A DNA stretch of 64,000 nucleotides from Tortispora ganteri (lineage: Eukaryota), in assembly GCA_003707115.1 (NCBI GenBank), contig PPNB01000009.1, positions 124,001 to 188,000 of the forward strand, read 5' to 3'. The notes under the pieces are model-generated. The model made no database searches. It had not been told where the DNA came from and worked only from the letters and a program-made list of their open reading frames with translations. This document shows, piece after piece, positions 21,352 to 37,463 of the stretch. Each line of letters opens with the position of its first letter. The stretch's first letter is position 1. The position numbers and the translations under genes are program-made.

Positions 21352-21567
21352 CTCATCAGTAGTAATAGAGCCGGTTGTAGTATGTTTCTATGTGGGTAAT
21401 TATCGTCCCAACATACACTCATATCTACAGCACTGCCAGTGTAACTTTTGTACCTGACCCCAAACCTACCTTGGCATTGTGTAAAGTAAGACGAGACCGC
21501 CTAGACCATTCACTGTAAACGATCAAAATCCGGCCTCTCCTCTACCCGCGGTGAGATTTTCCAGAAA

Positions 21568-23064
21568 ATGAAATCGTCAGGGGATGGACGACATACAGCG
21601 CCAGAAATGATTCAAGTCGACCGATCGGAGTACATGTTTGGCGAGGACGGCGGCAAAGGAACTCCTGCCTCAAGTTTCCTCAGGTCGAAATTCTTCAAGG
21701 ATTCTCATTCGCCAAAAGGCACACTATATGATGAAATGAAAATAGTAGGTGCAGCTTATTCGTATGCAGATATGCTGAAAATGAAGTCCAGAACCTCGGC
21801 GCACAAGTCGCGGTCGTCAAAATCGGCAGCCTCTGAAAGCTCAGCTTCGAAATTTGCTATCACTGATTGGGAAAATGACGATTGGAGTGCTGATATCGAC
21901 GAAGAAGAGCCGGATACACGCAGAGTCAAAAGTATTGAGAACATTCCGCAACCTGCAGCTTTATCGCGCGTACATAGCGCTACAAGCAGCATTGCTCCTG
22001 CAGGGTCACCGCACTCGCGCGAATGCTCAGTTGATTCATGCGCACAAAACGACGCACAGCTGAACGCCGAAATTGAAGAAATAAACGCTCGATTAGGTCG
22101 TATAACGAAATTTAAGTCTATTTTTCGTCAGCCCGTAATCGACCTTGCTGCACTACGCAAACTCGCTTGGGCTGGCATCCCGGACGAGCTCAGACCACAG
22201 GCATGGAAACTACTGCTCGGTTACCTCCCTAAAAACTCGAACAGAAGAGAAGAAACATTGCTTAGAAAACGACAGGATTACCTAGACGGCATTGAAGCCG
22301 TCTTCTCGAGACCATTGGATCAAGTAATGTGGCACCAGATTAGCATCGACGTCCCACGTACAAACCCGCATATTCCTTTGTATACTCACCATACAACACA
22401 GAAGGCCCTTGAACGAATTTTGTACCTTTGGGCTGTGAGACACCCTGCATCTGGTTATGTTCAAGGCATAAATGACCTTGTAACGCCTTTCTTCCAAGTG
22501 TTTCTCTCCGAGTACATAGATGCCGATAACATCACAGACTACGACCCCAAATCCCTTTCCAAAGATGATTTGAATGCAATAGAGGCAGATTGCTATTGGT
22601 GCTTAACAAAGCTGCTGGACGGTATACAAGACAATTACATTCAAGCGCAGCCGGGAATACAAAGACAAGTAGCGGAGCTTCGCGATCTAACGAAACGAAT
22701 TGATGCCACTTTAGCCGCACACCTCGAACACGAGAACGTGGAGTTCATCCAATTCAGCTTCCGCTGGATGAACTGCCTACTGATGAGAGAACTCTCTATT
22801 GACAATATAATACGCATGTGGGATACTTATATGGCGGAAGAACCGTTAGGATTTTCACGCTTTCATGTGTTCGTTTGTGCAGCGCTGCTTGTCAAGTTTT
22901 CTTCGGAACTACAACGCATGGATTTCCAGGATATAATGATATTTCTTCAATCGATTCCGACAGGTGACTGGGACGAGAAAAATGTTGAGCTGCTTCTGAG
23001 TGAAGCCTACATGTGGCAGACGCTGTTCAAGGACTCCTCCGCGCACCTAAAGGATAACGAATGA
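21568..23064 (+). CDS. GYP1: Rab GTPase-activating protein Gyp1 (TBC1D22-like)
   Basis: TBC motifs IDVPRT and YVQG, HPASGYVQGINDL, QFSFRWMNCLLMRE. Confidence 0.93.
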   Translation: MKSSGDGRHTAPEMIQVDRSEYMFGEDGGKGTPASSFLRSKFFKDSHSPKGTLYDEMKIVGAAYSYADMLKMKSRTSAHKSRSSKSAASESSASKFAITDWENDDWSADIDEEEPDTRRVKSIENIPQPAALSRVHSATSSIAPAGSPHSRECSVDSCAQNDAQLNAEIEEINARLGRITKFKSIFRQPVIDLAALRKLAWAGIPDELRPQAWKLLLGYLPKNSNRREETLLRKRQDYLDGIEAVFSRPLDQVMWHQISIDVPRTNPHIPLYTHHTTQKALERILYLWAVRHPASGYVQGINDLVTPFFQVFLSEYIDADNITDYDPKSLSKDDLNAIEADCYWCLTKLLDGIQDNYIQAQPGIQRQVAELRDLTKRIDATLAAHLEHENVEFIQFSFRWMNCLLMRELSIDNIIRMWDTYMAEEPLGFSRFHVFVCAALLVKFSSELQRMDFQDIMIFLQSIPTGDWDEKNVELLLSEAYMWQTLFKDSSAHLKDNE

Positions 23065-23159
23065 GGCCACGTCTCTACATATTAGTATATAAAATAAGAT
23101 AACATAACATCGGTCATATCTAGAAGGTCTGTAGAAGTAACAGTTACTAGCATTCCTTC

Positions 23160-23813
23160 TTATTCGCCTTCTTTCTTCTGCGAGGGAAGACGTGTCTCGA
23201 GCACATGTGGCAGTGTTACTTTAGTATTGATCAATGATGTAGCTATATGCGTGTGCGAGAGCAGTCCAGCGGCTCGTGCCCGTTTAATGGCTTTAGCGAG
23301 TCTTCTTTGCGTTCGCGGCTCCAGCCCGTTTTCACGGCCGCCCTTGATCGAGCCATCGACTCTAAGAAATTGTGACAAAAAGACAGGGTCTTTGGTAAAC
23401 TTCAGCGGATCAACACCCGCGTACTGGAAATTGTCCATCGATGGGTCAATTCGTTCCGCCGTCGAAGTCGCAGTGAGCGCTTTGTGAAGTGTGAGATCGT
23501 AAGGCTTATATGTGCCGTACCTCGAAAAGCTCGTGTTAAGCGCCGGTGAAATCCGTGTAGCCTTATTCACAATAGCCTCGGAAGAAGCCATGTCATGATC
23601 CTCCTGTTCGTACTTGGAGGCCTGTTGCATTCTTTGCACAATATTGGACATCTTAGCCCAGGCATCGTCCTCAGCGTCTAGTTCTCTGACTTCTTTCACG
23701 TCAGGCTCCCTGCTACTGCGCACATAAGCGCGTCTGGTTAAAGGCAATACAGAAACCTTCAAATTAAAAAATGAAGCCCTACACGGCGTCATTATTTGCG
23801 TGCTTCTCAGCAT
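23160..23813 (-). CDS. RSM18: Mitochondrial small-subunit ribosomal protein bS18m
   Basis: Basic presequence-like N-terminus; S18 core LSQFL..DGSI...NGL..RTQRRLAKAIKRARAAGLL. Confidence 0.85.
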   Translation of the reverse strand: MLRSTQIMTPCRASFFNLKVSVLPLTRRAYVRSSREPDVKEVRELDAEDDAWAKMSNIVQRMQQASKYEQEDHDMASSEAIVNKATRISPALNTSFSRYGTYKPYDLTLHKALTATSTAERIDPSMDNFQYAGVDPLKFTKDPVFLSQFLRVDGSIKGGRENGLEPRTQRRLAKAIKRARAAGLLSHTHIATSLINTKVTLPHVLETRLPSQKKEGE

Positions 23814-24401
23814 TTTCGAGTGTGCCGGTACGATCGTGTGGTAGACTTATTACAATGTGAGATTTTTTGTGAAACCCATTCCCTCATATTTCCCCTAGCA
23901 ACCTAAAACTGCTAGTGTTAAATAGAGTTTAAGTTTATTATACTACTGTAATATATGTTCATACCATCTTGAAATGGAACGCAAAGCCTTAAATGACTCT
24001 CATAGTAGAGAAATCAGGTATCATGCTGTAGCATTAGCTTCATTGGGTTGCATAGTGTGCAGGATATAGTTGTCCCACATTTGTGCATCGTTTTCCATAT
24101 CAACCTGCTCGTATATGTGAGCCCGCTGGGGATAGAAAGCTGGTGGATCTCCTATTTGGTATGTTTGTTGATTCCGCCCTCGAACGTCCGATTAAATAAC
24201 CAGTATCAGGAGCGCAATTGCATGATAATCTTCTGTCGGCAGACAAGAAGCGTATCTCATGTTTGTGGTTAGGTTCTGATAACGCTTGATTTAATATAAG
24301 CGAGTGCTGCACGCAAGTTCGAGCAGAACTAACAGCTTTCGCTGATGCCGCTGCAGAAGATCCAAAATCCTTGGCTTTGTATGCGCATAAAACTACCAGC
24401 C

Positions 24402-27400
24402 TTATACTTTTTGCATGGCGTTAAACAGCGTAAGAAAATCATTGTTCAGCGAAGTAATATGCGCCGAATGTGATACGTCCAAGCCAGAAAGAGAGCGTAC
24501 TGTAGTTGGAACGGGGAGAGGCTCATCTTTTGATTGCACTATGTGGGTTTCTATCACCATATTTGCTTCGGTCAAACGCGTATGTGATACTCCTGAAATA
24601 TCAACAGTTAGTTGTTGGTGTATTTTTCTGTGGCGTATCAAGGGGGGTTCGGTAGCACGTCCTATGTTCAAGTGAAAGTTCCACATCTCTTTTTCAGGGA
24701 TGTTGTTCTCGTTAAACCATTTTTTGGCCAGACACACAATGTGCTTGCAGATATGGTAAGGATTGCGAAGATAGGACTTGCAGTTGCAACGCCATGACTG
24801 TAATGAAGTGCGATATTCACTGGTCTTCTGAAGCGTCTCTTCCCAATATGCTGTTTTCCGAAATTCTTCAAAAATGGGGCGCCACATCTTCATAAATCTG
24901 ATACGCCAACTTGCCATATTCTCGGTGCATTGATTGATTCTATATCCCTCCAACCGCTCGTGCAGTTTGGGTACTTCTTCGCTCTCAATATGTTCTAATA
25001 TCCCATAATTTGCAGCGTCAAGTCGGCAGCTTCTGCGTTTTCTGACAACTACATAACCTTTGAGCACGCTCCAATGACCTTCTATGCCCATCGTAGTCTT
25101 CAATATAGGGACAGAAGATCGTGAAGCCTGCGCCCAGTGCATCCATTCTTCTGGGCAGTACCACTCTTTCCACATATATGCCCAGACTTGCGGGATCTTT
25201 TCTTTAAGACAAAATTCGTACATCTCGCGCACAGAGTCTTTGTAAATTTGCGCATTCGTGGTACCTTCAATAAGGTATTCATGTCGCGCAATGTGTCCAG
25301 CGAACATTGCAACCAATGCATTCTGTAAGTTTACTCTTTCCTCTTCTAAGTAAACTCTTCGGGTTTGAGAATTCTTCCAGGAACAGTCGCATTTACTTGA
25401 TCGATGAAGATCTGGAAGATGTTCTGCAGTGCTTGCAAAGCATGGCTGAATGTCTGGCAGCACTGCTCTAACGTTAGCAAATCTGTAATCGCTTATTGAA
25501 CTAGTATTCTCTATGTCACGGCTGCGTATTGCGTGTAATGCATGCCATGCACATATTCGAATCTTCTCTGAGCCCCAAATTTGGCTAACAGCACGTATAG
25601 TGGCCTTATCTTTGTCAATATGCACAAATGATGGATTCACGCCCTTGCGGCTCAGTAAATGCAACGCCCGTCCAATCGCATGGGCCATAAAAGGTTCGGA
25701 TGTTTCCTTTTTCGAGAGATAAAAGTAGCAAAGTGGATATACTGCACCATCCAGGGCCGCTAAAACTCCGTAGAGATTGTAAGGGTCTTTTGAAATGCTG
25801 AAAGTAGAATCTATAACAACTTCAGAGATAATTGGAGCAAGCGCGTTAACGAAGAAAGTAAATATCATGGAGAATCCAGTCAAGCGACCTTGCGTGGCCG
25901 CACAGATATCGTAGGCTTCCACCCCTCTTGCAGTTTGACAGTACATGAACGCAGATTGAAGTGGGTCTTCATGAAGTTTCCACGCTTTTTGACAGACTTT
26001 TCGGTAGTAATAGACCAATGAGCTCTTCTTACATGTTCGCATCACATGCTTCAAAGTTTCGTCCTTTCGTAGTGCTTTATTTATACTGCAAAACGAAGGG
26101 CTGGTAGGTGAAGAAGCGTTTTCCCATATAAATTGTTTGATTGAAATTGGAAGATTTGGCGGAGGTGGTGGCGGTGGATGCGGTTTGTGTCGCAGAAAGA
26201 TTTGAATGCATTTAGCATTTGGATGATAGGTTACAACCAAGCGAGAGTTACAGCGCTCTGTCATGTGTCTTCGCTTGTAATGTACCTTTGCCTGCGAGCC
26301 TTGTTCGTCTTGACAACAATAGAAGCTGACAGTGAATGGGCCGATACCTTTCCAAGTTGTGGCACTTCCCCACACAAATCTGTAGCCAGTGGCCTTTTCA
26401 ATAAGGCCACGCACGATATAATCGCGTACAAAAACTCCCATCTTCATTCTGTTTCTTTTGACATCTACCAATTGAGATTCGTCGGGAAGACCGTTTCGCT
26501 CCATTGCCTCGCGGTTTAGGTGCAGAATGGCATTCGCGCTCCCGTTTCCATTTCCTGAGGCCAGGGCACGAAAAAATAATTCTGCATCGGTATACACTTC
26601 AGAGGCATTGCTTTCCTTGATCATAAGGCGTCGTTTCTTCTTATCGGTCCTGACACCTTTAAGAACGCGGCTTCGACGTTTTACTTCAGCATTGGCTTCC
26701 CGGCACCTTATACACTTGGCCTTGATGAAACGTTCAGGTTCGGATTCTCCCATTACTTTGCGACAATGTGTGCAAACAGTAGTTTTATTCGCCGGAGGGC
26801 TCGTAAACAATGAAGTGTATACGTCGGGTGGAAGTTCTTTGCGTTCACGGTAGACGTTGGGGCACTCAGGTTGATCTGGTAGATCCGCAGTTCCATCTTG
26901 CTGCAGTAGCGAGCACATAAGATCAGCTTCTTCTTTTTCAAATTCCTCTTCGCTGTCGCTATCGCTGTGTTGGTCACCGTCGCTCAACTCTGTGTTACTT
27001 TCAATTTCCTTGTAGCTCATATCATATGCATCCTCCCATTCAACATTCTTAAGCTCTATTTCTTCGTTTTCCATTTCTTCGTTTTCCATTTCTTCGTTTT
27101 CCATTTCTTCGTTTTCTAACTCCTCGTTTGATGGCGAGGTCGTTTCAATGTATGAATAGTCCTCCGGCTGAGCACTGAAAGTTTCATCGACCTCTTGCGG
27201 AGTCAGTGTTAGGTGTTGAGGTGCAATTCCGCTGTCCCATTCACCTTCTCGCAGTTCTTCAGCTTCCTGTGAGGAGTTTCCGTCAAATTCTTCCGCGTAG
27301 CTGTGTACTGGAATCTTCATTTCGGGTGCGTCGCGTGTCAGTTTCTCCAGATCGTGGCATCGCTTTTGCGTACCAGCTAGTTTACAGCTCGGGTTGGTGC

Positions 27401-27873
27401 TTACGCGACAAGTTTGCCCAGTTCTTTGAAGCCACTCAGTAAGTACAGATGAGACCCTGTAATCATCAGCCTTAATAGCTTCTGGGAAGTCCGTGGCAAT
27501 GAATTTCTTGGTGGCTTCGTGAAAATAGTTCAGTGAATAAACACGCTCTGCAACTTGTCGAAGAGTCATGTCTAGCGACTCTTGGTAATCTTTTGCAAGA
27601 CTTTCCGTACTTTCGACGCCATTCCTTGTACTCCTTAGTTTCAGGAAATTAGCATCAATAACCTTTTTAATGTCTGCAACAGTGTTATTCACTACGTTTG
27701 TGTGATCGGGTTCAGAAAAGGGGGATTGGAATGTGGACTGTAATGAAGCGATACAGTCCCGGAGCTTTTTTCTGATCGTTAGATATGTTTCGGGACCTTT
27801 TTTAGACTAATCATGTACGTTACCTAGAGGAAATAGCGTTGTAAAGCGACTCTTCGAGTAGTTTTTCGTCCAT
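24402..27873 (-). CDS. Mutator-like (MULE) DDE transposase-family protein with SWIM zinc finger; proposed exons 27873-27824 and 27771-24402 (about 1139 aa)
   Basis: D1 VVIDSTF, D2 VHIDKD, CxWH (ICAWHA), E in TTMGIEGHW, SWIM CNC-x10-CKH, upstream WRKY/GCM1-like C..C..HxxH and a C2C2 motif. The intron GTAACG...CTAAC-GATCAG (52 nt) joins MDEKLLEESLYNAISS in frame. TATAAATA lies about 60 bp upstream. Confidence 0.85.
27058..27129. repeat. 15-bp coding tandem repeat (EEMEN/EELEN) inside the MULE gene
   Basis: atttcttcgttttcc repeated about 4 times; encodes NEELENEEMENEEMENEEMENEEI. Confidence 0.9.
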
Positions 27874-28444
27874 TGTTTACTCGTACACGGTGTGATGGGA
27901 ATGTAAACATGCCTCCCACCGCGTTTTCCTCTATTTATACCCCTTTTTTAAACCTCTATAACTTCACCAAAAATATGCCAATTTCATTTTTAAATATATT
28001 AAAGCGTGCAGAACGCTCTGGCGCATAAAATATGGCAATTTCAAGGCGATCCGGCAACTTTTTTGGAAATATGTAGCTTCGGTAGGAAATCCTTAGTCCC
28101 AATTTCCAGTTAAAGCTTCATATTACACTGAGTCAGTTTTCCCCAAATAGTTGAATTTCGCCTCCAAAGCACTACCATTTGAAAGATCTAGCAATTATAA
28201 TTAAAACACTCATTATTACTGAATTTAATCTATTTTTGAAATAGTTACGACTAAAACAAATTCACGTTGTCAAGAGAGGATCCCTGTACAGTAATCCCTT
28301 GTATAGTACCGGTGACTCAAGCGTTCACCCACTCATCCTCAGACCCAATGAATAGTTATATTACCATGGCAACATCATCTTCTTGAATTCAACGCTTTGC
28401 AGGGCCAGCCGCTCAACACCAGCGCATCACAATCAAGGTAGATA

Positions 28445-29842
28445 ATGGTACAGATTGATGATGAATTCGATGATATATAGTAAGTTTTTGATGCTGTTTG
28501 CACCGAATATTTATACTAATGAAGTAGTGAGGAGCAGACACCAGATAGAGAAGAAGTTGTGAAAGATCATGTAGCTCCCGATACCTCAGGAAAGGAGACT
28601 TCTATAAGCGACAAAGACGAGCCAGAGAACGTTTCTAGACATGTAGAACCGGCAGAGAATCCCACACCCATGGTTTCAACTGAGACTAAAGAAGAACAAC
28701 CAGATGGGATCAGTATGACCGAACGAATGAAGGCAGAAGGTAAGCTCTTTATTGGCGGTCTACATTGGCAGACAGATGAAGACAGTCTAGTGAATTATTT
28801 TTCTCAATTTGGTGAAGTCATGGATCGCGTTATTATGCGCGATGGTCCTAACGGAAGGTCACGCGGGTTTGCATTCCTGACTTTTAAAGACCCGTCGTCT
28901 GTAGACAAAGTGCTGGAGACAACGCACGTACTAGATGGCAAAACAATCGATCCTAAACGTGCGATTCCTAAAGACCAACAGGAAAATGCAGGCAAGATCT
29001 TTGTGGGTGGACTGCCTTCAGAAATAACAGAAGAAGAGTTTCATGATTTCTTTGCGAAGTACGGCAACGTAATCGATGCTAACTTGATGGTGTATAAAGA
29101 GACAGGACGGTCTCGCGGATTTGGCTTTATTACGTACGATTCGCTAAAACCTATTGATGATTTATTCGCAGCTGGGCCGTTGGTTATTGGAAATCGCACT
29201 ATTGAAATCCGAAGAGCGCAGTCGCGTAATAAGGCAGCTGAAGAAGCAGCTGCAGCCGCAGCAGCCACTTCGCAACTGGATTCAAACTCTTCTGGCTCTA
29301 ATGGACCGCCAAATGACGACGTTGACTATTCTCAGCCCTACTACGGTGGTTTCACGCCGCATATGATGGCGGAGTACTGGCGTCAGATGCAGGCTTACTA
29401 CGCGGCAATGCAACAGCATCTGATGGGGTTGTCTAATAATAGAGGACTGCATATGGGAGGAGTACTGGACTCCACGGTACAAAATAACTCAGCTACAGCT
29501 AACACTGGCACTGGATCTGCGTCGGGACTACCCTTTTTTCCTATGCCTGGAGTTGACCCGCAAGCAATGATGCAAATGATGCAGTCTATGGCTATGGCTA
29601 GTGGCAGTTCTGCAGCTAACAGCACCACCCAATACGCAGGAGGGCCACAAGGTGGCAATCCGTCTGAAACGAAGGCAGACAGTCACTCCAAGAATGATCA
29701 ATCGAGCAGTAATCAAAAAGGCCAAAATGATGAACAGGAAAACTATCGAAATTCGCGTGATTATGACAATCCTAATCGACCAGGAGGGCCTATGGGTCGT
29801 TCTCACAACCGTTATAACTCACACCCATACTCCAGGCGTTAA
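28445..29842 (+). CDS. HRP1: Two-RRM hnRNP / polyadenylation factor Hrp1 (Nab4); exons 28445-28479 and 28528-29842
   Basis: KLFIGGL, RSRGFAFLTF, LDGKTIDPKRAIP, KIFVGGL, RSRGFGFITY, MAEYW..MQ.YY and PY-NLS (HPYSRR). The intron GTAAGT...TACTAAT...TAG (48 nt) gives MVQIDDEFDDIYEE. Confidence 0.9.
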
Positions 29843-29845
29843 GAT

Positions 29846-31705
29846 TTATACCATAAGTGAATTTCGTGAGACCTCTTTTACAGAAGGTCTATATTCACAC
29901 CATTGGACTTTGTACCGGCCCAGAAAGCTGCCAACGTTTGAAACCTGGCACTCTTCGTAAGAGACATTATATGACGGTGAAGTTGCATCGGACATCACCA
30001 ATACAGTGGGTAAAGGCTGCAGCCATAAGGTGCTATAATAATCCCACAGATTCGGTGTTATTTCTTGCGGAAACGGAGATAAGGTGGCTTGGTCCAGTAG
30101 TGTTCGTGCTATACGGCGACCTTCTATGACCTCAGCGGTGGGCTTGAATTGGTCATTATGTAGGCTGTGATCTGGATCTGTTGCACTAAGCATTTCGTGA
30201 TCTTCTTTTTCTGAATTTGTCGGTCTATTTTCCTTCTCCGCTTGTTCAGCTTCTTGGTAGCCAAGTGGACCAGCACCAATTCGAAGCTGGTTGCGGCGCA
30301 TGCGAGCGCCTATATCATCTCTGCATATGACAATCTCCTGTGAGAAGAAGCTGATTCTGCAGGGGTTAGAAGTGAATATAATTCTTGGGCTGACTCTGCG
30401 CAGTCTGTTTGTGAAAATTTCAGGTATTGGTCTTTGTGGCAGCATTCTTATTGCGCCCGAGCTGTGGCTTGTAGCCCATGGGTCTTTCTCGCCAGGAACG
30501 AATATGAAAGTAGCATTTTGTGTAAGATCCGGATACTTTTTGAGGATTTTTTCGAGATTGTCGAAGCTTGCCTTATATTGTGCGGAATCTCCTGATCCTT
30601 GGAACGCGCTGCTAGTGAAGCTGCCTATTAAGACTATTGCTAACGGTATTTCTTCCTTATCTGAATCGAGTTTAGCGAATGTTTTATCCAAAGCCATGAG
30701 CACTTTCGGGTTATCTAAGTGAATTTCATGGCCCAATATGACAATTTTTATGTCTGTTTGTTCGATCTCTTCCGTGAACATTTTCTGTTGTAGCGAGCGG
30801 TCGAATCTGCCGATAGTGTTTCTGGACCCGTTGTTTGTTACGCCGAGGAAGTCTATGTAGTCGTACGCGTCCAAACTGGCGTATCGCTGTTCGGCCGGCG
30901 GGTGTGCCATTACAGCGACGATAAAGGTTTCAGAACTAGAGTAGAGGCCTTCTACCAAAACAAAGCAGCCATAATGATAGTAGCCCAACGAGCTCTGTAC
31001 TTGCGAGAGGTCGAGTTGTATGCGACCGCTGGGGTCGTGCAAGTAGACATTCCCGTCAGCGCCCTTCGAGAGCAGACCAAACAGCAAAAAAGTCTTTCCA
31101 AACCGTCCAAGAAGGTGGCTTATAGAATATATGGTACCCTTTGAGTTGGTTAGTACAGCGTCAGAGGAGGGAGCCTGGAAGAAGTCGCTGCGATGAAGTC
31201 GGTGATAGATCATATAGTAACGTGATATGAACATTTCGACAAGCGACTGACGATTACCCAGCGCGCTTGGTGTTCTCGCAAATAAATCGAAATGCTTTTT
31301 TGGGGTATTATAAGTCCATAGAGGTTGGCTGAATGCGTCATGGACTTTGAAGAAATCATCTAGACTAAGTGACTCCTGCTGATGTGTACCGACGACTCCG
31401 TATATGGAATCATGGCGCAGTTCAACTTCCTGAATAACTGATTTTAAATTATCACCGTCAATAAAAAGTCCTCTGTCCTGATCCTTCCATTGCCTTGCCA
31501 AAAAGTCCAGAAACTTTTCGGCTTTAGTGTTCCAGTCGGAACCAAATGCCCGACCGATATAAGTGGCGAGCATTTGTAGCCCTGTCGACTTCAAATTCAG
31601 TCCATGCTTTTTTGAAAGAACCCTATACGCTAACGGACGTAACTGTGATGGTTTTAATTCTAAAGGAAGATGTGGAGTCTCAGATAAACGCGCTGTTTGG
31701 TCCAT
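29846..31705 (-). CDS. DPB2: DNA polymerase epsilon subunit B
   Basis: LRPLAYRVLSKKHGLNLKS, HPPAEQR, FVPG..DPW, SNPCRI.FFSQEIV.CRDD, TLLDQ..LSPF. Confidence 0.95.
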   Translation of the reverse strand: MDQTARLSETPHLPLELKPSQLRPLAYRVLSKKHGLNLKSTGLQMLATYIGRAFGSDWNTKAEKFLDFLARQWKDQDRGLFIDGDNLKSVIQEVELRHDSIYGVVGTHQQESLSLDDFFKVHDAFSQPLWTYNTPKKHFDLFARTPSALGNRQSLVEMFISRYYMIYHRLHRSDFFQAPSSDAVLTNSKGTIYSISHLLGRFGKTFLLFGLLSKGADGNVYLHDPSGRIQLDLSQVQSSLGYYHYGCFVLVEGLYSSSETFIVAVMAHPPAEQRYASLDAYDYIDFLGVTNNGSRNTIGRFDRSLQQKMFTEEIEQTDIKIVILGHEIHLDNPKVLMALDKTFAKLDSDKEEIPLAIVLIGSFTSSAFQGSGDSAQYKASFDNLEKILKKYPDLTQNATFIFVPGEKDPWATSHSSGAIRMLPQRPIPEIFTNRLRRVSPRIIFTSNPCRISFFSQEIVICRDDIGARMRRNQLRIGAGPLGYQEAEQAEKENRPTNSEKEDHEMLSATDPDHSLHNDQFKPTAEVIEGRRIARTLLDQATLSPFPQEITPNLWDYYSTLWLQPLPTVLVMSDATSPSYNVSYEECQVSNVGSFLGRYKVQWCEYRPSVKEVSRNSLMV

Positions 31706-31725
31706 TTCGCGCTAATCTGTATAAA

Positions 31726-31731
31726 ACGCGT
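31726..31731. promoter_or_regulatory. MCB (MluI cell-cycle box) upstream of DPB2
   Basis: ACGCGT plus neighbouring CGCG cores within about 40 bp upstream of the DPB2 ATG; expected for a G1/S replication gene. Confidence 0.55.
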
Positions 31732-32064
31732 CTGATCGCGCGGTCGGTGTAAAGGTATGGTTCTGCATAGCAACAATGTTGACCAGAGCGCGATACTAGG
31801 CATTATAATGTATGATTATATATGTAAACATGTATTGAAATTACATGAGTTTATATAAATATATTTTATGATATATATTTTTTGGACTCTTGATGTTTAC
31901 TATAGTGTTCATATTATATGTTATTAATATGTTGTTAGTAACATACTGATATCATCTATTACTACTACCTTTGTACTACTTAACATCAACTAAAATTATC
32001 ATATTGAAAACAGAGGTAACAAAACTAAAAATCACATATGTCTCGCTTAATTATCAAATAAAAC

Positions 32065-33612
32065 TTAAAGTGTATAGCGGAATAATGGAGAACGATCGCC
32101 CATTGCCGCTAGCTCCTTGGCGGTATATTGCGCATAGATTTCCTCTTCGCTCATTTGGTCTCTCTTCTTGTTGATCGATTTTAAAACGAATAATAAGATG
32201 AAGCACGAAATAATACAACTGCCGCAAATACCAAGACATACACCATATCCTACAGGATAGTGTGGTGCTTGACTTTCGATGAAAATATTTGATCCAATGA
32301 CTCCTCCAAGGTTACCGAAGGTCAATTGCGCTGCAGATCCAAGTGTATGGCGCCAGCCTCCAATCAGATTGTTCGAGTTCCAAGCAATAACACCAGGGAA
32401 CGAAGCATTAATTCCAACCAGGATTAAAAATGTCGCAAAGTATACCGGAGCAACACTCGCAGTACAAATCGGGATAATCAATCCGGCAATGGATATCATA
32501 ATCGGTACAGCAATAAACGGCATACGGCGCTTCATACGGTCAGAATAATATGCTGTTGCCAAACAGCCAACGCATGCGCAGAAATATGGAGGAATAGTGA
32601 GCAGCTGAGAAACAGCGGTCGAAAATCCAAGACCTCTAATTACCACTGGCAACATGTATGTCAGTGCATAACCAGTTACCGAAACAGCCCAGAACTGAAT
32701 CACAGTGAGATAAATATAATAATTAGTGAGTGCCTCCCAAAGATATCTCCATTTCCATGGACCACGAGCTGATACATCTTGGAACTGTTCTGAGTTGAAT
32801 GTGCTTCGCAAAATCATAAATCTTTTCTCGTCTTCTGTTAACCATTTGGCATGCATAGGATCGTCAGGTAACATAGCAGCAGATGCTGTTCCGATGGTCA
32901 CAGTAGCCAAACCTTCAATAATGAAAATCCAGCGCCATCCTTCAAGACCAGCAATACCGTCCATGAAAGCAATTCCATATGCCAATAATCCTGAGAAAGC
33001 TCCGGACAAACTCGCGGTGGAGAAGAAAAACGCTACTCGTTTTTGAATCTCGTGACGTTGGTACCATATATTCAAGCAGTATATAGCACCAGGGAAGAAA
33101 CCAGCTTCCGCAACACCAAGGAAAAGTCGAGCAGCCCACAACCCCTTATAGTTCTGAACGACGCCAAAAAGAGTCATAATGGTACCCCAAACAAAAATCA
33201 AAATTGGAAGCCAAATTGAGGGACGAAGGTACCTCAAAACAATGTTTGATGGGATCTCAAAAACGGAATAGGTAATGAAGAAAAGGGTCAAAGCAATGTT
33301 GTATTGTTGGCCAGTCATCTCGAGATCAGTTTGCATACCAGCAATTCTGGCATTTCCGATGTTACCACGATCTAGGTATGCTAAAAGATAAAGAATGGCG
33401 AGAATTGGAGGCATGCGGTAATCGATCTTGCGCAGAAGTCGATTGCTTCCTCGAGGGCCCATACGCTCCAAGAGCTCCTCATATTCAACCCTCAATGCCT
33501 CAGTGTGTTCCTTGGTATGCACAGCGAAATGATCGGCACTGAGCCCAACTCCGCTCATTTTGACATTGTCAATGTGTTCAGCTGATGACGCACTTTTGTT
33601 GTCTAAAGACAT
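32065..33612 (-). CDS. MFS transporter, anion:cation symporter (Dal5/Tna1) family; most like nicotinic acid permeases
   Basis: LDRGNIGNARIAGM, FEIPSN, RLFLGVAEAGFFPG, LEGWRWIFIIEG, C-terminal GDRSPLFRYTL; first ATG at 33612; TATAAATA at 33714-33721. Confidence 0.9.
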   Translation of the reverse strand: MSLDNKSASSAEHIDNVKMSGVGLSADHFAVHTKEHTEALRVEYEELLERMGPRGSNRLLRKIDYRMPPILAILYLLAYLDRGNIGNARIAGMQTDLEMTGQQYNIALTLFFITYSVFEIPSNIVLRYLRPSIWLPILIFVWGTIMTLFGVVQNYKGLWAARLFLGVAEAGFFPGAIYCLNIWYQRHEIQKRVAFFFSTASLSGAFSGLLAYGIAFMDGIAGLEGWRWIFIIEGLATVTIGTASAAMLPDDPMHAKWLTEDEKRFMILRSTFNSEQFQDVSARGPWKWRYLWEALTNYYIYLTVIQFWAVSVTGYALTYMLPVVIRGLGFSTAVSQLLTIPPYFCACVGCLATAYYSDRMKRRMPFIAVPIMISIAGLIIPICTASVAPVYFATFLILVGINASFPGVIAWNSNNLIGGWRHTLGSAAQLTFGNLGGVIGSNIFIESQAPHYPVGYGVCLGICGSCIISCFILLFVLKSINKKRDQMSEEEIYAQYTAKELAAMGDRSPLFRYTL

Positions 33613-33757
33613 CCTGAAATCCTTATAATGCTTATGATTGAAATGAAAGCTAGCTATCTGAATACTTCCGTTAGTGGAATAGGAATTGTGATATCTTTCA
33701 AGCACGTCACGGATATTTATAGTCTGAGAGAATCACTCCTGCACTCATGTCTTCTCT

Positions 33758-33976
33758 GCGGGGGTTCATCTTCAAATCAACAGCCCCTCACATGATACTG
33801 CGGGGCACTTCTTGCCATTAATAGCAGATTGTTTTTCTTTAACGTAACTCTAAGAAAGTTGCCTGCTAGTCCTAATAATTACTGGTATGTGTCTTACTAT
33901 CTGCCTGTAAGAATAATGCGGGGCCATGGCTTCTGATTGGTCAATTTGTGAATTTCAAATACTTGGCACAGCGGGG
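33758..33976. promoter_or_regulatory. Cluster of four GCGGGG (Mig1/CreA SYGGRG-type) sites in the transporter promoter
   Basis: GCGGGG at 33758, 33800, 33918 and 33971, all in the same orientation. Confidence 0.6.
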
Positions 33977-34603
33977 CTGCAAGTTTTGTAACTTTTCGGT
34001 GAAAGCCTTACGAGGGGGCTGAAATGCGATTTCGTCTTATATTTTTTAAACTGATATTGTCATAATGGAGAGATTATAGCGGTGCTTACGGCTTAAATTG
34101 TCTTCGTGTCAATCAAAAGCGTTATTGACATTTACGCGAATTACCCATTGAATGCACTATTCAATGGGGTTGCAATGCAATTGAGAACTTTACCAATCCA
34201 GGAAACAGAGAGGTGATTCTCAAAAGAAGTAATTTTTAAGTATTCAGTGATATCCTATGATTTGATGAAATATGCCTGTGCTCATGAGGCCTAATCCCGA
34301 TCGGTTCATCACTGGTGCTGATTTTCCTCTTCGGATAGTTTCAGATGTTGACTCTAACTCTGAAAAACTCTTCCGAATAAAGGCTTGGCAGCGCGCTCTG
34401 TGCTCGTCGGCTGTACAGAACAATCGCCGATCTGACCGAAACAAGTTTTGCGTGCTTTGCTTCCTCAATCAATGCCTACTTAAGTAAATCTACCAATTGT
34501 TCTCTACCTTAATCACATCAATTTTGGCGTGATTATGTTACTCAATGCGTGCTATTGCGCTGCTTTATCTGCAATCACATCTGTATGTGATCAAACGAGA
34601 CGA

Positions 34604-34638
34604 GGTTAGTCTCGATCGGAGACCGATCGAGACTAACC
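34604..34638. repeat. Perfect inverted repeat, 16-bp arms with a 3-nt loop
   Basis: GGTTAGTCTCGATCGG-AGA-CCGATCGAGACTAACC. Confidence 0.95.
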
Positions 34639-36188
34639 CAGTAAATCTCGGATTAGAAGCTTCATATGACTCTGAAGGTGCAATTGTTGGTTCGTTAGGT
34701 TTTTATTCTTTGAATAGAAGCAACTTATTGGGCATTTAAGCTGACAATATTGCCCTTACAATCAAATCTCTTTGAGTCATGAGCATTGTCCTGTTCAAGT
34801 GCAACATAGGCAAACCTCGCAGCTCGAAACTCGCAAAAGTATATTGCTATTGATCAACTGGGCAAAACCACGCATGAAAGAATGGTATATATTAATTTGA
34901 TTAGCTGTGCGCGGAAATTAACACGGTTTTTTATTGTGCAGGCCGATCGCGAAGACTTTTCTGCGATTAGACGAGCACCCACAACGGCTCGATCTACTCA
35001 CTCAGTGGTCTGATGACAGTTACCTCGAACTTCTACGGCTAACAAGAAACATATCGGTTTTCAAACTATATCAGTGTGATCTGCGGGGCAGGATAATGAG
35101 ATCATACTAGTCGATACTGCTTGTCTCCGCGTTCCTTTACATACTTCTGAACTCGGAGTTAAACCAGACTAGAAATAGTTAATTCAAACGTCAAAAATAC
35201 TCCGAAAATGGACAATTTACCCTTGGGGTAGAATCATGCATGTGAAGAGAAATCCTCGGTATTCACATAATAAAGTTTCGAAGCGAAAGATCCTCCAAAT
35301 ACTCTTCAGGAACAATATATCCAGGCATGTTCAATGAGAACTCTCTCTCCATTCTCTATTACCGGTACGTTATACACACGTTAGTGGAACTTTCATGGTT
35401 TGAAGGATGTACTGGGAAGACTATATATGGATTTGAATTTGTTAAAAGGCTGGCGATGTCATGAATGTCATTTGAGGCTGAACGTATGACCTGAACCGGG
35501 ACAATTAGTCGATCTTGATGATCTACACCCAAACCCCGCATCATTCTCATATCGGGAAAGTCTATTTTGGGAAATATGACCTTCCCATCAACTAAAATGG
35601 TATAATACGCTGTGCATCGTGTACAGACAGCGAAACAGTTACTAGAAGTACGCTGTTGAATATATTGGATTAGAATTTGTTCTAACATGCAAACACAGAC
35701 TGATACATTGAATATAAATACAAACAATGAGGTTCAACAGGGCCAATGGCTGGAAATAAAGCCTCGGATTTCTCTACCTAAAGTTCCAATCTCTGCCGAT
35801 TCAGTCTCGTGAGCACCTAATATGCAAGAAGATCATACTATAATAATTCCGTTATTTTCCGATACTGCACCTAATAGGGTTTTGCCGGATAGCGATATAC
35901 TTTTTTTTTCTTGTCTTAATTGCTGTTTAATTTGAGAAATGCGCCGGCATATGACTTTATTATTTTGGCCAAAGAATTAAACGATAGTTGGTTTGATTGG
36001 GGGAAAGCACACACTAACTTTGATCCAATGACCATACATAGTAAGTGGGGTCAGGCTGGGCATTATTCCTTTTCGTTGCAAGCAACTATGTATGCATCAA
36101 ACAACGTTTTATATCGTATACCCCTCACATACATCGTGAACGGCCAACAATAAGTCCGCCGGCTTTGCTGCTCCACTGGAAACATTCT

Positions 36189-37463
36189 CTACCAACGCTT
36201 AGTTTCATCTCCTTCAGCCCAACTTTCCTCAGTGTACCCTAAGATCTGTTTCACTTTGCATACAGTAGCAAAATCTCCGCTATGCTTGTCAGGATGATCG
36301 CTAAGTTTAATTGCAGGTTTCCCATTAATTGCGCTGATCTTTATTACTATATTGAGAGGTTTTGAGTCTGCAAAATCGTTAGTGAAATACGTGCCTATAC
36401 CAAAACTTGGTACGAGACCATGGCTTAGCGCTGCTTCTCTGTACTTGATACATTTTTCTTCATTTAAAGAGTCGCTGTACACTATTGCCTTTGATCCAGG
36501 GCTGTATCCGAGGTTCCTGTAGTGCTCACTTATCAGTTCAGTGTATTTCATGGGGTCTCCAGAGTCGTGTCTAACTCCTGCATACATATCCGACAGAGGC
36601 GGCAGAAAACACTTCAAAAAGGTCTTAGTGCCGATAGTGTCTGTCAACGCGACGCCGGCGTACTTGGATCCGTATATCTGCAGCCACTGTTCCAGAGCGA
36701 GCTTATTGGCATTCACATAATCTCCAGTAATAGCTGCGATTCCCATTGTCCATTCATGTGCCACTGTTCCAATGGGTTTCAAGCCATACTTTCTGGCGAA
36801 ATATACGTTAGAAGTGCCAGTAAGTATACCTTTTTCAGTTGGTAGCGTATCAAATTTGAGCTCGAGCTCGGCGACGTAGTCCCGCTGTGCCTCAAGAAGC
36901 CCCTGTATCACAGTATCTTGAATCTCAAAGGATCTGCGACGTCTAGTGCCGAAATCTGCGAAGTGACAGTTGCCATGCAGGAGTTTAAGACCTTTTGATT
37001 TAGCGAGATCGAATTGGCCATCTGATGTCCAGTTGGTATCGACAAACTTGAAATATGCTGCAGAGATAAGCGCCAGAACGGGGATCTCGTAAAGTATAGT
37101 TACTTTCCAGAGTCCTTGAATAGATATATTCAAGTTACCTGAAGACTCTTCAAATTCAATAGTTACCTCTTTATCTGGGTCTAGTTTGAATTCGCTTAAT
37201 AGCGTATAGTAGTCGTCTGGTAGCTGGGGTACAGCTTCTCGCAAGTATGCAATTTCGTCTTCTGAGAAACGCAAATCTGCTAGTGATTTCACTTGCGCTT
37301 TTATCCAATTAACTGCGGGATATGTGAATGTTTTCTGAATGGTTCTATTAGTGAATTCATAGCTGGCAATGGCATCTGGATAGAATCGATTCACCGCCGC
37401 TTGCATAGTGAACTTGTACAGATCTGTGTCGAGAAATCCATGAATTTCAAACTGATTGTCCAT
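36189..37463 (-). CDS. NPT1: Nicotinate phosphoribosyltransferase
   Basis: LDTDLYKFTM, DFGTRRRRS, GTSNV, GTVAHEW (phospho-His), GVRHDSGDP, YSDSLN, FGIGT, KLSD. Confidence 0.97.
   Translation of the reverse strand: MDNQFEIHGFLDTDLYKFTMQAAVNRFYPDAIASYEFTNRTIQKTFTYPAVNWIKAQVKSLADLRFSEDEIAYLREAVPQLPDDYYTLLSEFKLDPDKEVTIEFEESSGNLNISIQGLWKVTILYEIPVLALISAAYFKFVDTNWTSDGQFDLAKSKGLKLLHGNCHFADFGTRRRRSFEIQDTVIQGLLEAQRDYVAELELKFDTLPTEKGILTGTSNVYFARKYGLKPIGTVAHEWTMGIAAITGDYVNANKLALEQWLQIYGSKYAGVALTDTIGTKTFLKCFLPPLSDMYAGVRHDSGDPMKYTELISEHYRNLGYSPGSKAIVYSDSLNEEKCIKYREAALSHGLVPSFGIGTYFTNDFADSKPLNIVIKISAINGKPAIKLSDHPDKHSGDFATVCKVKQILGYTEESWAEGDETKRW

What the first reader, a model, noticed from the sequence alone, without database searches (positions are those of the whole stretch)
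24402..27940. Intact, probably spliced, TIR-less Mutator-like transposase among housekeeping genes: candidate domesticated transposase
Seen: an uninterrupted frame of about 1139 aa with the full MULE catalytic set (D in VIDSTF, D in HIDKD, CxWH, E in IEGHW), a SWIM finger, a WRKY/GCM1-type region and a C2C2 motif. It also has its own TATA box and a host-style 52-nt intron. By eye I found no terminal inverted repeats or 9-bp target duplication in either flank (23814-24400; 27900-28400). Known: MULE transposases have given rise to host transcription factors (plant FAR1/FHY3; the yeast Aft1/Rcs1/Rbf1 DNA-binding domains). Inference: either an immobilised, possibly exapted gene that keeps its DDE triad, or an active element with short or unusual ends.
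Basis: partly seen in the sequence, partly recalled or inferred. Interest (0 to 1): 0.72.

Follow-up and report, generated by a model that had tools for sequence, protein, structure and literature searches.

The report
Low-copy Mutator transposon in a yeast
This is an intact gene for a Mutator-type "jumping gene" enzyme in a small yeast genome, but it occurs in about three diverged copies and lies elsewhere in a sister species, so it looks like an ordinary low-copy transposon family rather than a gene the host has adopted.

Summary
A minus-strand frame of 1055 aa (ATG 27569) reaches 1139 aa if a predicted 52-nt intron is spliced out. It carries the MULE D-D-E/CxxH set, a SWIM-type CxC...CxH motif, an N-terminal WRKY/GCM1-like zinc module, a CxxC...CxxC motif and a TATA box. 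No terminal inverted repeats or target duplication rise above chance.

The "single, immobilised, domesticated gene" reading is not supported.
- **Copy number:** Logan contigs of two public DNA runs of the same organism have depth 86-95 on the flanks and about 240-380 over roughly 24038-28055. Window-identical contigs (~82-95x) lie beside alternative contigs (~165-190x) that differ by 11-15%. That indicates about three copies of a ~4 kb unit.
- **Selection:** of 36 listed coding differences, 17 are synonymous (omega about 0.4), and the only coding indel is in frame.
- **Sister species:** the closest homologue, in Tortispora caseinolytica (82-83% identity), is split into two gene models. It lies 146 accession numbers from the RSM18 orthologue on the same scaffold.

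Best reading: one copy of a low-copy Mutator-like element family resident in this yeast lineage, with its ends still unmapped. A TIR-less host-adopted paralogue family, like K. lactis alpha3, is not excluded. It is a new member of a known kind, of modest interest.

The parts
23908..28095 (.). Approximate extent of the repeated unit, about 3 copies per genome. The core with shared words is 24038-28055. The outer limits are uncertain by tens of bases.
   Evidence: depth is 86-95 on the flanks and 240-380 inside. The flank contigs end at 24066 and start at 28026. A 164.7x contig still covers 23962-23985.
27824..27873 (-). Predicted exon 1: ATG plus 16 codons and 2 nt.
   Evidence: Read. It is in frame with exon 2 after the 52 nt are removed. 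No RNA evidence.
27772..27823 (-). Predicted 52-nt intron, GTAACG...TCTAAC..CAG.
   Evidence: Length and branch site are like host introns; the 5' site lacks G at +5.
24402..27771 (-). Exon 2, the transposase coding region including the stop. An alternative unspliced start is ATG 27569.
27932..27939 (-). TATAAATA, about 60 nt upstream of the ATG.
   Evidence: Sequence only; function not tested.
26700..26774 (-). CxxC-x17-CxxC motif (P0001 333-357).
   Evidence: kept in T. caseinolytica. Similar N-terminal CxxC pairs occur in 4 of 18 homologues aligned. pLDDT is low.
26178..26378 (-). WRKY/GCM1-like zinc module (P0001 465-531).
   Evidence: Aft2 Z 6.1, rmsd 3.2, 76 aligned.
24936..25838 (-). 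DDE RNase H-like catalytic core with insertion domain (P0001 645-945). Codons: D654 at 25811-25809, D719 at 25616-25614, E897 at 25082-25080.
   Evidence: conserved columns; MULE in 19 of 19; ISCth4 Z 12.9, rmsd 6.7, 281 aligned.
24741..24788 (-). SWIM-type CxC-x10-CxH (P0001 995-1010).
   Evidence: all four ligands invariant. No Pfam SWIM hit.
27055..27129 (-). Four 15-nt tandem repeats coding the acidic ENEEM run.
   Evidence: D1. The run is 10 aa shorter in T. caseinolytica.
27970..28043 (+). Two 17-nt direct repeats (27970-27986 and 28027-28043, 16 of 17 identical) upstream of the TATA box, inside the repeated unit.
   Evidence: (D9). No copy at the other end of the unit.
23160..23813 (-). 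Flanking single-copy host gene, mitochondrial ribosomal protein bS18m (RSM18-like).
   Evidence: (depth 86).
28446..29842 (+). Flanking single-copy host gene, HRP1-like two-RRM protein, with a short exon 1 and a 48-nt intron at 28480-28527.
   Evidence: (depth 95).

Best explanation
The locus is one copy of a low-copy Mutator-like element (MULE) family that lives in this Tortispora-like yeast lineage. It sits in the divergent RSM18/HRP1 intergenic region.

The unit is about 4.0-4.2 kb and carries a single gene with its own TATA box and probably one short 5' intron. The protein has the usual MULE layout behind a long, acidic, mostly disordered N-terminal region with a CxxC pair. The layout is a WRKY/GCM1-like zinc module that should recognise the element's ends, an RNase H-like DDE core with an insertion domain that should cut and rejoin DNA, and a SWIM finger.

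Shown here: the domain set, the conserved catalytic residues, the transposase fold, about three genomic copies, excess synonymous change between copies, and a different location in the sister species.

Inferred: cut-and-paste mobility, now or in the recent past, with ends that are short, degenerate or simply not yet mapped.
For: - **Family:** 826 homologues at E<=1e-3. MULE Pfam matches 19 of 19 aligned members. The D, D, E, CxxH and SWIM ligands are all invariant columns in the 19-sequence alignment; in the 68-sequence alignment D719, K720, D721, C740, H743, E897 and W900 are at least 90% conserved.
- **Fold:** the best structural matches are the IS256-family ISCth4 transposase (Z 12.9, rmsd 6.7, 281 aligned) and Hermes (Z 11.2, rmsd 5.3, 237 aligned).
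- **Copy number:** flank contigs are at 86.4-94.9x. Inside the unit, window-identical contigs are at 81.6x and 95.4x, alternative contigs at 179.9x and 190x (68 differences in 445 nt; 39 in 359 nt), and shared contigs at about 262x. This is 1 + 2 copies, and the two others share contigs over 359-448 nt.
- **Selection:** 17 of the 36 listed coding differences are synonymous, against 27% expected (p 0.006; omega about 0.4). The only coding indel is +1 and +8 nt, net +9, in frame. It lies where T. caseinolytica has 3 extra residues.
- **Location in the relative:** the T. caseinolytica homologues are ODV90746.1 and ODV90747.1. The RSM18 orthologue is ODV90600.1 on the same 3.1-Mb scaffold.
- **State in the relative:** that copy is split in two models, and its tail matches the window's 3' end in another frame, as expected of a decaying transposon copy.
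Against: - No TIR was found. The best left-flank versus reverse-complement right-flank alignment scores 22, reached by 82 of 200 shuffles. The best joint TIR+TSD score is 17, reached by 9 of 30 shuffles.
- The exact ends of the repeated unit could not be mapped. Segmental duplication of a gene is therefore not excluded.
- The copies are 2-15% apart, not near-identical, so no burst is shown. The near-identity of the two other copies rests on contigs in which rare variants are dropped.
- X1 and X2 give almost the same depths and may be one data set, so the depth evidence counts once.
- The window protein lacks a C-terminal tail (...P.TW...) that 14 of 18 aligned homologues have.
- The selection estimate uses 36 of about 270 differences, namely those the tool listed.
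- Reading gene order from accession numbers is an assumption. It is supported only by the two MULE pieces having consecutive numbers.
Confidence: 0.6

Rival explanations
1. A host-adopted (domesticated) transposase, kept as a small paralogue family without transposon ends. It would act either as a DNA-binding regulator or, since it keeps D-D-E, as a programmed nuclease in the manner of K. lactis alpha3.
For: - No TIR or TSD above chance.
- The frame stays intact, and synonymous change is in excess between copies that differ by about 15% in non-coding DNA.
- Codon usage and GC3 sit in the middle of the host genes.
- The gene has its own TATA box and a host-like 5' intron layout.
- TIR-less MULE transposase genes are on record in yeasts: alpha3 and TBLA0D02000 (PMC4629796, passages read).
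Against: - About three copies rather than one.
- The closest homologue in T. caseinolytica is 146 accession numbers away from the RSM18 orthologue, and is split with a frame change. A gene under host selection should be intact and syntenic.
- Beyond the two T. caseinolytica pieces (81-84% identical), no hit in the representative search exceeds about 43% identity, so there is no conserved orthologue across yeasts.
Confidence: 0.25
2. An immobile relic: old copies of a dead element, or a plain segmental duplication, whose frame in this copy has simply not broken yet.
For: No ends were found. The copies are diverged by 2-15%. The conserved C-terminal tail of the family is missing. The predicted intron has a non-consensus 5' splice site. 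The T. caseinolytica copy appears broken.
Against: About 4% of random substitutions in this frame would create a stop. With some 230 coding differences between copies, an intact 1122-codon frame is unlikely under neutrality; this is an inference. Synonymous excess has p 0.006. All catalytic and zinc ligands are kept.
Confidence: 0.12

Closest known systems
Fungal MULE transposases with WRKY/GCM1-type N-terminal finger, DDE core and SWIM (Hop/Mutyl-related group; architecture described by Babu et al. 2006, PMC1702500, passages read)
   Same: Same order of domains. The same invariant D, D, E, CxxH and SWIM ligands. MULE Pfam matches all 19 aligned members. 24-33% identity over 400-600 residues to the best non-Tortispora hits, among them named proteins from Tilletia, Steccherinum and Penicillium.
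   Different: About 450 extra N-terminal residues (acidic repeats, CxxC pair). No C-terminal P.TW tail. No TIRs found. Its own Pfam score is just under the cut-off (27.0 versus 27.6 bits).
Mutyl of Yarrowia lipolytica, said to be the only complete, active MULE described in Saccharomycotina (PMC4629796, passage; features from the table in PMC6446971, passage)
   Same: A low-copy MULE in an early-branching budding yeast, with a zinc-finger DNA-binding part and an intron-bearing transposase gene (the intron in Mutyl is recalled, not checked).
   Different: Mutyl has 22-bp TIRs, 9-10 bp TSDs and a second ORF (PMC6446971). Here no TIR, no TSD and no second ORF of 30 aa or more with sense in the 3' part. 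Sequence relatedness to Mutyl was not tested.
K. lactis alpha3 and T. blattae TBLA0D02000, TIR-less MULE-type transposase genes in Saccharomycetaceae (PMC4629796 and PMC5499181, passages)
   Same: Large MULE transposase genes (TBLA0D02000 is 1032 aa) in yeast genomes without flanking TIRs. Alpha3 is a domesticated but still DNA-cutting enzyme.
   Different: Alpha3 lies at the mating-type locus and has a shown host role. Here the neighbours are housekeeping genes, no host role is known, and there are about three copies. Sequence similarity to alpha3 was not tested.
ISCth4 (IS256 family) transposase, PDB 6xg8/6xgx/6xgw
   Same: Best structural match of the catalytic region (Z 12.1-12.9, 277-281 residues aligned, model 542-1058).
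   Different: A bacterial insertion-sequence enzyme with 13-14% identity, no WRKY-like or SWIM module.

Membership tests
MULE / Mutator-superfamily transposase (the protein) | Homology to the MULE catalytic domain (Pfam PF10551) | tested here: met
   Own hit E 6e-6, 27.0 bits, just under the 27.6 cut-off. 826 phmmer relatives. 19 of 19 aligned members match PF10551, best E 9e-15.
MULE / Mutator-superfamily transposase (the protein) | D, D, E triad with the C(x2)H signature after the second D | tested here: met
   D654, D719, E897 and C740/H743 are invariant in 19 sequences. D719, E897, C740 and H743 are at least 90% conserved in 68 sequences; D654 is not on that list.
MULE / Mutator-superfamily transposase (the protein) | RNase H-like transposase fold with an insertion domain | tested here: met
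   AF2 core pLDDT about 80-97. ISCth4 Z 12.9 (rmsd 6.7, 281 aligned), Hermes Z 11.2. Foldseek E 1.5e-3 to P element and 2.1e-3 to ISCth4.
MULE / Mutator-superfamily transposase (the protein) | N-terminal WRKY/GCM1-type zinc finger | tested here: inconclusive
   The C..C..HxxH pattern is conserved and the model has four strands. Aft2 Z 6.1, WRKY33 4.6, WRKY1 4.4, GCM 4.1; the top hit is an unrelated fold at Z 7.1. No Pfam FAR1 or WRKY hit.
MULE / Mutator-superfamily transposase (the protein) | C-terminal SWIM finger (CxCxnCxH) | tested here: met
   C995, C997, C1008 and H1010 are invariant in 19 sequences. The Pfam SWIM model itself gives no hit.
MULE transposon (the element) | Terminal inverted repeats | tested here: inconclusive
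   None above chance. However, the unit's ends are known only to within tens of bases, short TIRs such as 22 bp would not stand out, and non-TIR MULEs are on record (PMC6446971, passage).
MULE transposon (the element) | 8-11 bp target-site duplication | tested here: inconclusive
   The 10-bp repeat GCGCATAAAA (24383 and 28021) lies inside the shared unit and has no TIR beside it (9 of 30). The best TSD+TIR candidate (23848/28121, 9 of 10) is matched by 9 of 30 shuffles.
MULE transposon (the element) | Several copies at different places in the genome | tested here: inconclusive
   Depth shows about 3 copies. No second copy lies in the 64-kb window. Where the others lie could not be seen because no whole genome is held.
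MULE transposon (the element) | Different insertion sites in related genomes | tested here: inconclusive
   The T. caseinolytica homologues are ODV90746/7 and RSM18 is ODV90600, on the same scaffold. No DNA of that species was available to check for an empty site.
Domesticated transposase gene (FAR1/FHY3, MUSTANG, alpha3 type) | Single orthologue at a conserved position across species | tested here: not met
   About 3 copies. The sister-species homologue is not beside RSM18 and is split.
Domesticated transposase gene (FAR1/FHY3, MUSTANG, alpha3 type) | Loss of transposon ends | tested here: inconclusive
   None detected, but the ends are not mapped.
Domesticated transposase gene (FAR1/FHY3, MUSTANG, alpha3 type) | Purifying selection on the protein | tested here: met
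   17 synonymous of 36 against 27% expected, p 0.006. This does not distinguish the family from an active transposon lineage.
Domesticated transposase gene (FAR1/FHY3, MUSTANG, alpha3 type) | Expression and a host phenotype | not testable with these tools
   No RNA run was listed.

The most novel reading that the evidence does not exclude
The Tortispora-lineage copies are TIR-less MULE transposase paralogues that selection keeps catalytically intact for a host task. An example would be programmed DNA cutting or rearrangement, as with K. lactis alpha3. That would be an independent adoption of a still-active Mutator nuclease in an early-branching budding-yeast lineage.
Probability: 0.2. Interest if true: 0.6.

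Novelty: new member of a known kind. Interest (0 to 1): 0.3.

Why it matters
DNA transposons are scarce in budding yeasts. One review passage calls Mutyl of Yarrowia the only complete, active MULE described in the subphylum (PMC4629796). An intact, selected, roughly three-copy MULE family in a 10-Mb early-branching yeast genome would add a second lineage in which Mutator elements persist. It would also give a compact system for asking how a low-copy DNA transposon survives in a gene-dense genome, or how it slides towards host adoption. My searches for 'Tortispora' with 'transposon' (3 papers, none about such an element by title or abstract, and one checked by passages) found no description of it. 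It remains an ordinary kind of object.

Tried and rejected
- **Whole-genome search:** not possible; none is held.
- **Word-based protein search** with residues 380-1080: no hit. The close relatives are short gene models outside its length range.
- **RNA:** no RNA holder was listed for the locus, so expression and splicing are untested.
- **Runs X3 and X5** (other organisms of the same studies): nothing useful. X3 laid one 36-nt piece in the RRM gene; X5 laid none. No contig was laid beyond 29055, and I draw nothing from that.
- **HRP1 search:** 885 proteins but no T. caseinolytica orthologue among the 120 listed. The RSM18-HRP1 interval in that species could not be judged.
- **PDB by sequence:** nothing meaningful. 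The single protein gave a best E of 0.16; the profile gave 0.91.
- **Rejected as target duplications or ends:**
  - GCGCATAAAA at 24383 and 28021 (no TIR beside it, and inside the shared unit).
  - TATTACAATG/TATTACACTG at 23848 and 28121 (chance level, and no extra depth there).
  - The inverted pair 24299-24314 / 28004-28019 (16 nt, 81%).
  - An inverted match I thought I saw by eye near 23946 and 28100 (not above chance).
- **C-terminal tail:** searched for downstream of the stop in all three frames and not found.
- **Second ORF in the 3' part:** only three ORFs of 31-42 aa.
- **Earlier notes of this scan:** none on this genome or sequence. The word search returned only analogous cases in other genomes.
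- **Not tested:** similarity to Mutyl, alpha3 or TBLA0D02000, because their sequences were not at hand.
Full report
**What is in the sequence**

On the minus strand an ORF runs from ATG 27569 to the stop at 24402 (1055 aa). The same frame stays open for another 67 codons upstream without an ATG (P0001, 1122 aa). It is closed further up by a TAG inside the stretch 27823-27772 (read). That stretch is 52 nt long, begins GTAACG and ends TCTAAC-5 nt-CAG.

A TATAAATA lies at 27939-27932. Three clear host introns in the window have the same build: a short first exon, 48-59 nt, and a CTAAC/CTAAT branch close to the 3' AG. They are 7087-7036, 28480-28527 in the HRP1-like gene, and 34583-34641. All three start GTAAGT or GTATGT, so the predicted intron's GTAACG (no G at +5) is off consensus. 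No RNA run holds the locus, so the splice stays a prediction. The neighbours are housekeeping genes: RabGAP, bS18m, an HRP1-like RRM protein and DNA polymerase epsilon subunit B. The rest of the window is also housekeeping.

**The protein**

- **Pfam:** only the MULE domain matches (E 6e-6, 27.0 bits against a cut-off of 27.6).
- **Homologues:** a full HMMER scan of 1.84 billion representatives finds 826 relatives at E<=1e-3 and 34 at E<=1e-30.
- **19-sequence alignment:** these columns are invariant (P0001 numbering): D654, D719-K720-D721, C740, W742, H743, E897, W900, and the SWIM ligands C995, C997, C1008, H1010.
- **68-sequence alignment:** D719, K720, D721, C740, H743, E897 and W900 stay at 90% or more; D654 and W742 are not on that list.
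- **Family-level Pfam:** all 19 aligned members match Pfam MULE, 11 match ZSWIM1-3_RNaseH-like, and none matches the SWIM or FAR1 models.
- **Structure:** the AlphaFold model is confident over residues about 390-1050 and disordered over most of 100-390. Its catalytic part is closest to the IS256-family ISCth4 transposase (Z 12.9, rmsd 6.7, 281 aligned) and to Hermes (Z 11.2). Foldseek alone is borderline (E 1.5e-3).
- **N-terminal module:** residues 390-540 folded alone (pLDDT 82) give Aft2-DNA at Z 6.1, WRKY33 at 4.6, WRKY1 at 4.4 and GCM at 4.1. An unrelated top hit scores Z 7.1. The WRKY/GCM1 reading is therefore plausible but weakly supported.
- **Architecture:** this is the standard MULE transposase layout described by Babu et al. 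(PMC1702500, passages).
- **Two departures:** the protein has a long acidic N-terminal region with a CxxC-x17-CxxC pair. It also lacks a C-terminal P.TW tail that 14 of the 18 aligned homologues have; the tail is not encoded downstream in any frame.

**Copy number**

No whole genome is held, and the window has no second copy. Two public DNA runs of the same organism hold the stretch. I laid their Logan contigs on 21500-31800 at 80% likeness.

- **Flanks:** covered by contigs at depth 86.4/89.9 (21500-24066, 4 differences in 2567 nt) and 94.9 (28026-29055, 0 differences).
- **Between the flanks:** the bins read about 240-380, and the stretch is broken into many short contigs of three kinds.
  - Window-identical contigs at 81.6x and 95.4x (0-1 differences).
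  - Alternative contigs over the same places at 179.9x and 190x (68 differences and 3 gaps in 445 nt; 39 in 359 nt).
  - Contigs at about 262x with about 2% differences.
- **Reading the 262x contigs:** contigs drop rarer variants, so they are most simply the parts shared by all copies, with the majority letter kept.
- **Inference:** this is the pattern of one window-type copy plus two others that share contigs with each other.
- **Extent of the unit:** a 164.7x contig still covers 23962-23985, and the first bin with extra depth starts at 23908. The last shared word ends at 28055. The unit is therefore about 4.0-4.2 kb and fills most of the gap between the RSM18-like ATG (23813) and the HRP1-like ATG (28446).
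- **Caveat:** X1 and X2 give nearly identical figures and may be one data set, so I count them once.

**Selection**

The tool reports 272 substituted places (175 transitions) and lists 40. Four lie in the left flank gene and 36 in the coding region.

- Of those 36, 17 are synonymous and 19 are not.
- With the observed transition share, 27% would be synonymous by chance, so p is 0.006 and omega is about 0.4.
- The six indels listed lie outside the coding region, except +1 at 25702 and +8 at 25706. Together those add three codons.
- T. caseinolytica has three extra residues at exactly that place. The window copy therefore carries a derived 3-codon deletion.
- About 4% of random substitutions in this frame would make a stop, so an intact frame after this much divergence argues for selection. 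This is an inference.
- Codon usage and GC3 are typical of the host.
- The sample is only the 36 listed differences. They come mostly from the less diverged segments.

**The sister species**

- **Identity:** the two best hits are Tortispora caseinolytica proteins ODV90746.1 (445 aa; 372 of 455 identical, P0001 94-548) and ODV90747.1 (342 aa; 249 of 301 identical, P0001 635-932). They carry consecutive accession numbers on one 3.1-Mb scaffold.
- **Broken state:** the pieces leave out residues 549-634. The last 41 residues of the second model do not align in frame. They match the window's 3' end read in a different frame. The model therefore jumps over the SWIM region with a frame change, so this copy looks broken. 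I had no DNA to confirm it.
- **Location:** the RSM18 orthologue of that species (181 of 206 identical) is ODV90600.1 on the same scaffold, 146 numbers away. If accession order follows gene order, as the two consecutive MULE pieces suggest, the homologue is not at the RSM18-HRP1 site. A search with the HRP1-like protein did not return the T. caseinolytica orthologue, so I cannot say whether that site is empty.
- **Wider distribution:** all other hits are far more distant, about 24-33% identical over long alignments and at most about 43% over short ones. Where named, they come from Tilletia, Steccherinum and Penicillium. No orthologue conserved across yeasts is seen.

**Ends**

Repeat finding over 23600-28700 gives no flanking inverted pair of note. 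The best local alignment of the left flank against the reverse complement of the right flank scores 22, reached by 82 of 200 shuffles. A joint scan for 20-nt inverted termini next to 8-11 bp duplications, within the limits set by depth, peaks at 17, reached by 9 of 30 shuffles. A 10-bp direct repeat (24383 and 28021) lies inside the shared unit and has no inverted sequence beside it. Two 17-nt direct repeats sit in the 5' part only.

So TIRs and TSDs are not detected. The ends are known only to tens of bases, however, and a Mutyl-like 22-bp TIR (PMC6446971, passage) would not stand out.

**Reading**

The protein is a member of the MULE transposase superfamily with nothing missing from its catalytic apparatus. 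The locus is one of about three diverged copies. The copies evolve under constraint on the protein. The nearest relative in another species lies elsewhere and appears decayed.

I put this at 0.6. A TIR-less paralogue family kept for a host function is not excluded (0.25). There is precedent in yeasts: K. lactis alpha3 and T. blattae TBLA0D02000 are not flanked by TIRs (PMC4629796, passage), and alpha3's role is described in PMC5499181 (passage). A dead relic is least likely (0.12).

**Novelty**

MULEs, non-TIR MULEs and domesticated MULE transposases are all known kinds. One review passage names Mutyl as the only complete, active MULE described in Saccharomycotina. My search for Tortispora with 'transposon' found three papers, none about such an element by title or abstract. 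This is therefore a new member of a known kind, of modest interest to yeast transposon biology.

**Limits**

The other copies were never seen as sequence. Copy number rests on one effective data set. The selection estimate uses a listed subset of the differences. Synteny rests on accession order. Expression is untested. I could not open supplements of the MULE survey (PMC6446971), and these may list yeast elements.

Noticed in passing
window 28446-28527: The HRP1-like gene probably starts at ATG 28446, not 28670. A 34-nt first exon and a 48-nt intron (GTAAGT...TACTAAT...TAG, 28480-28527) join in frame to the long ORF.
   Followed up: partly
window 27970-27986 and 28027-28043: Two 17-nt direct repeats (AAAATATGSCAATTTCA, 16 of 17 identical, 57 nt apart) lie upstream of the transposase TATA box and inside the repeated unit. 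There is no copy at the other end. They could be promoter or transposase-binding sites.
   Followed up: partly
P0001 C-terminus (window 24402-24560) versus alignment A1: 14 of 18 aligned homologues end in a conserved tail (R-x-x-P-x-T-W ... Y) of unknown role. The window protein lacks it, and no frame downstream encodes it.
   Followed up: partly
window 27055-27129: Four 15-nt tandem repeats code an ENEEM run in the acidic N-terminal region. The T. caseinolytica homologue is 10 residues shorter here.
   Followed up: no
window 21575, 21762, 21918, 22044: These are the only four differences between the window and the X1/X2 contigs in 2567 nt of left flank. All lie within 470 nt of the RabGAP gene. 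They may be strain differences or assembly errors.
   Followed up: no
P0001 residues 388-532 (window 26175-26609): The module that includes the WRKY-like finger has yeast YER067W (PDB 3bcy) as its best structural match: Z 9.3 in the whole-model look and 7.1 in the domain-only search. This is above Aft2 (6.1). The meaning is unknown.
   Followed up: no
protein P0013 (Penicillium sp., KAJ5582182.1): A 755-aa relative that aligns along the whole MULE core is named 'ATP-dependent DNA helicase PIF1' in its source record. This is probably a mis-annotation.
   Followed up: no
window 33612-36189: A 2.5-kb stretch without any ORF of 150 aa or more, with several intron-like signals (for example 34583-34641). 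It probably holds one or more intron-split genes.
   Followed up: no
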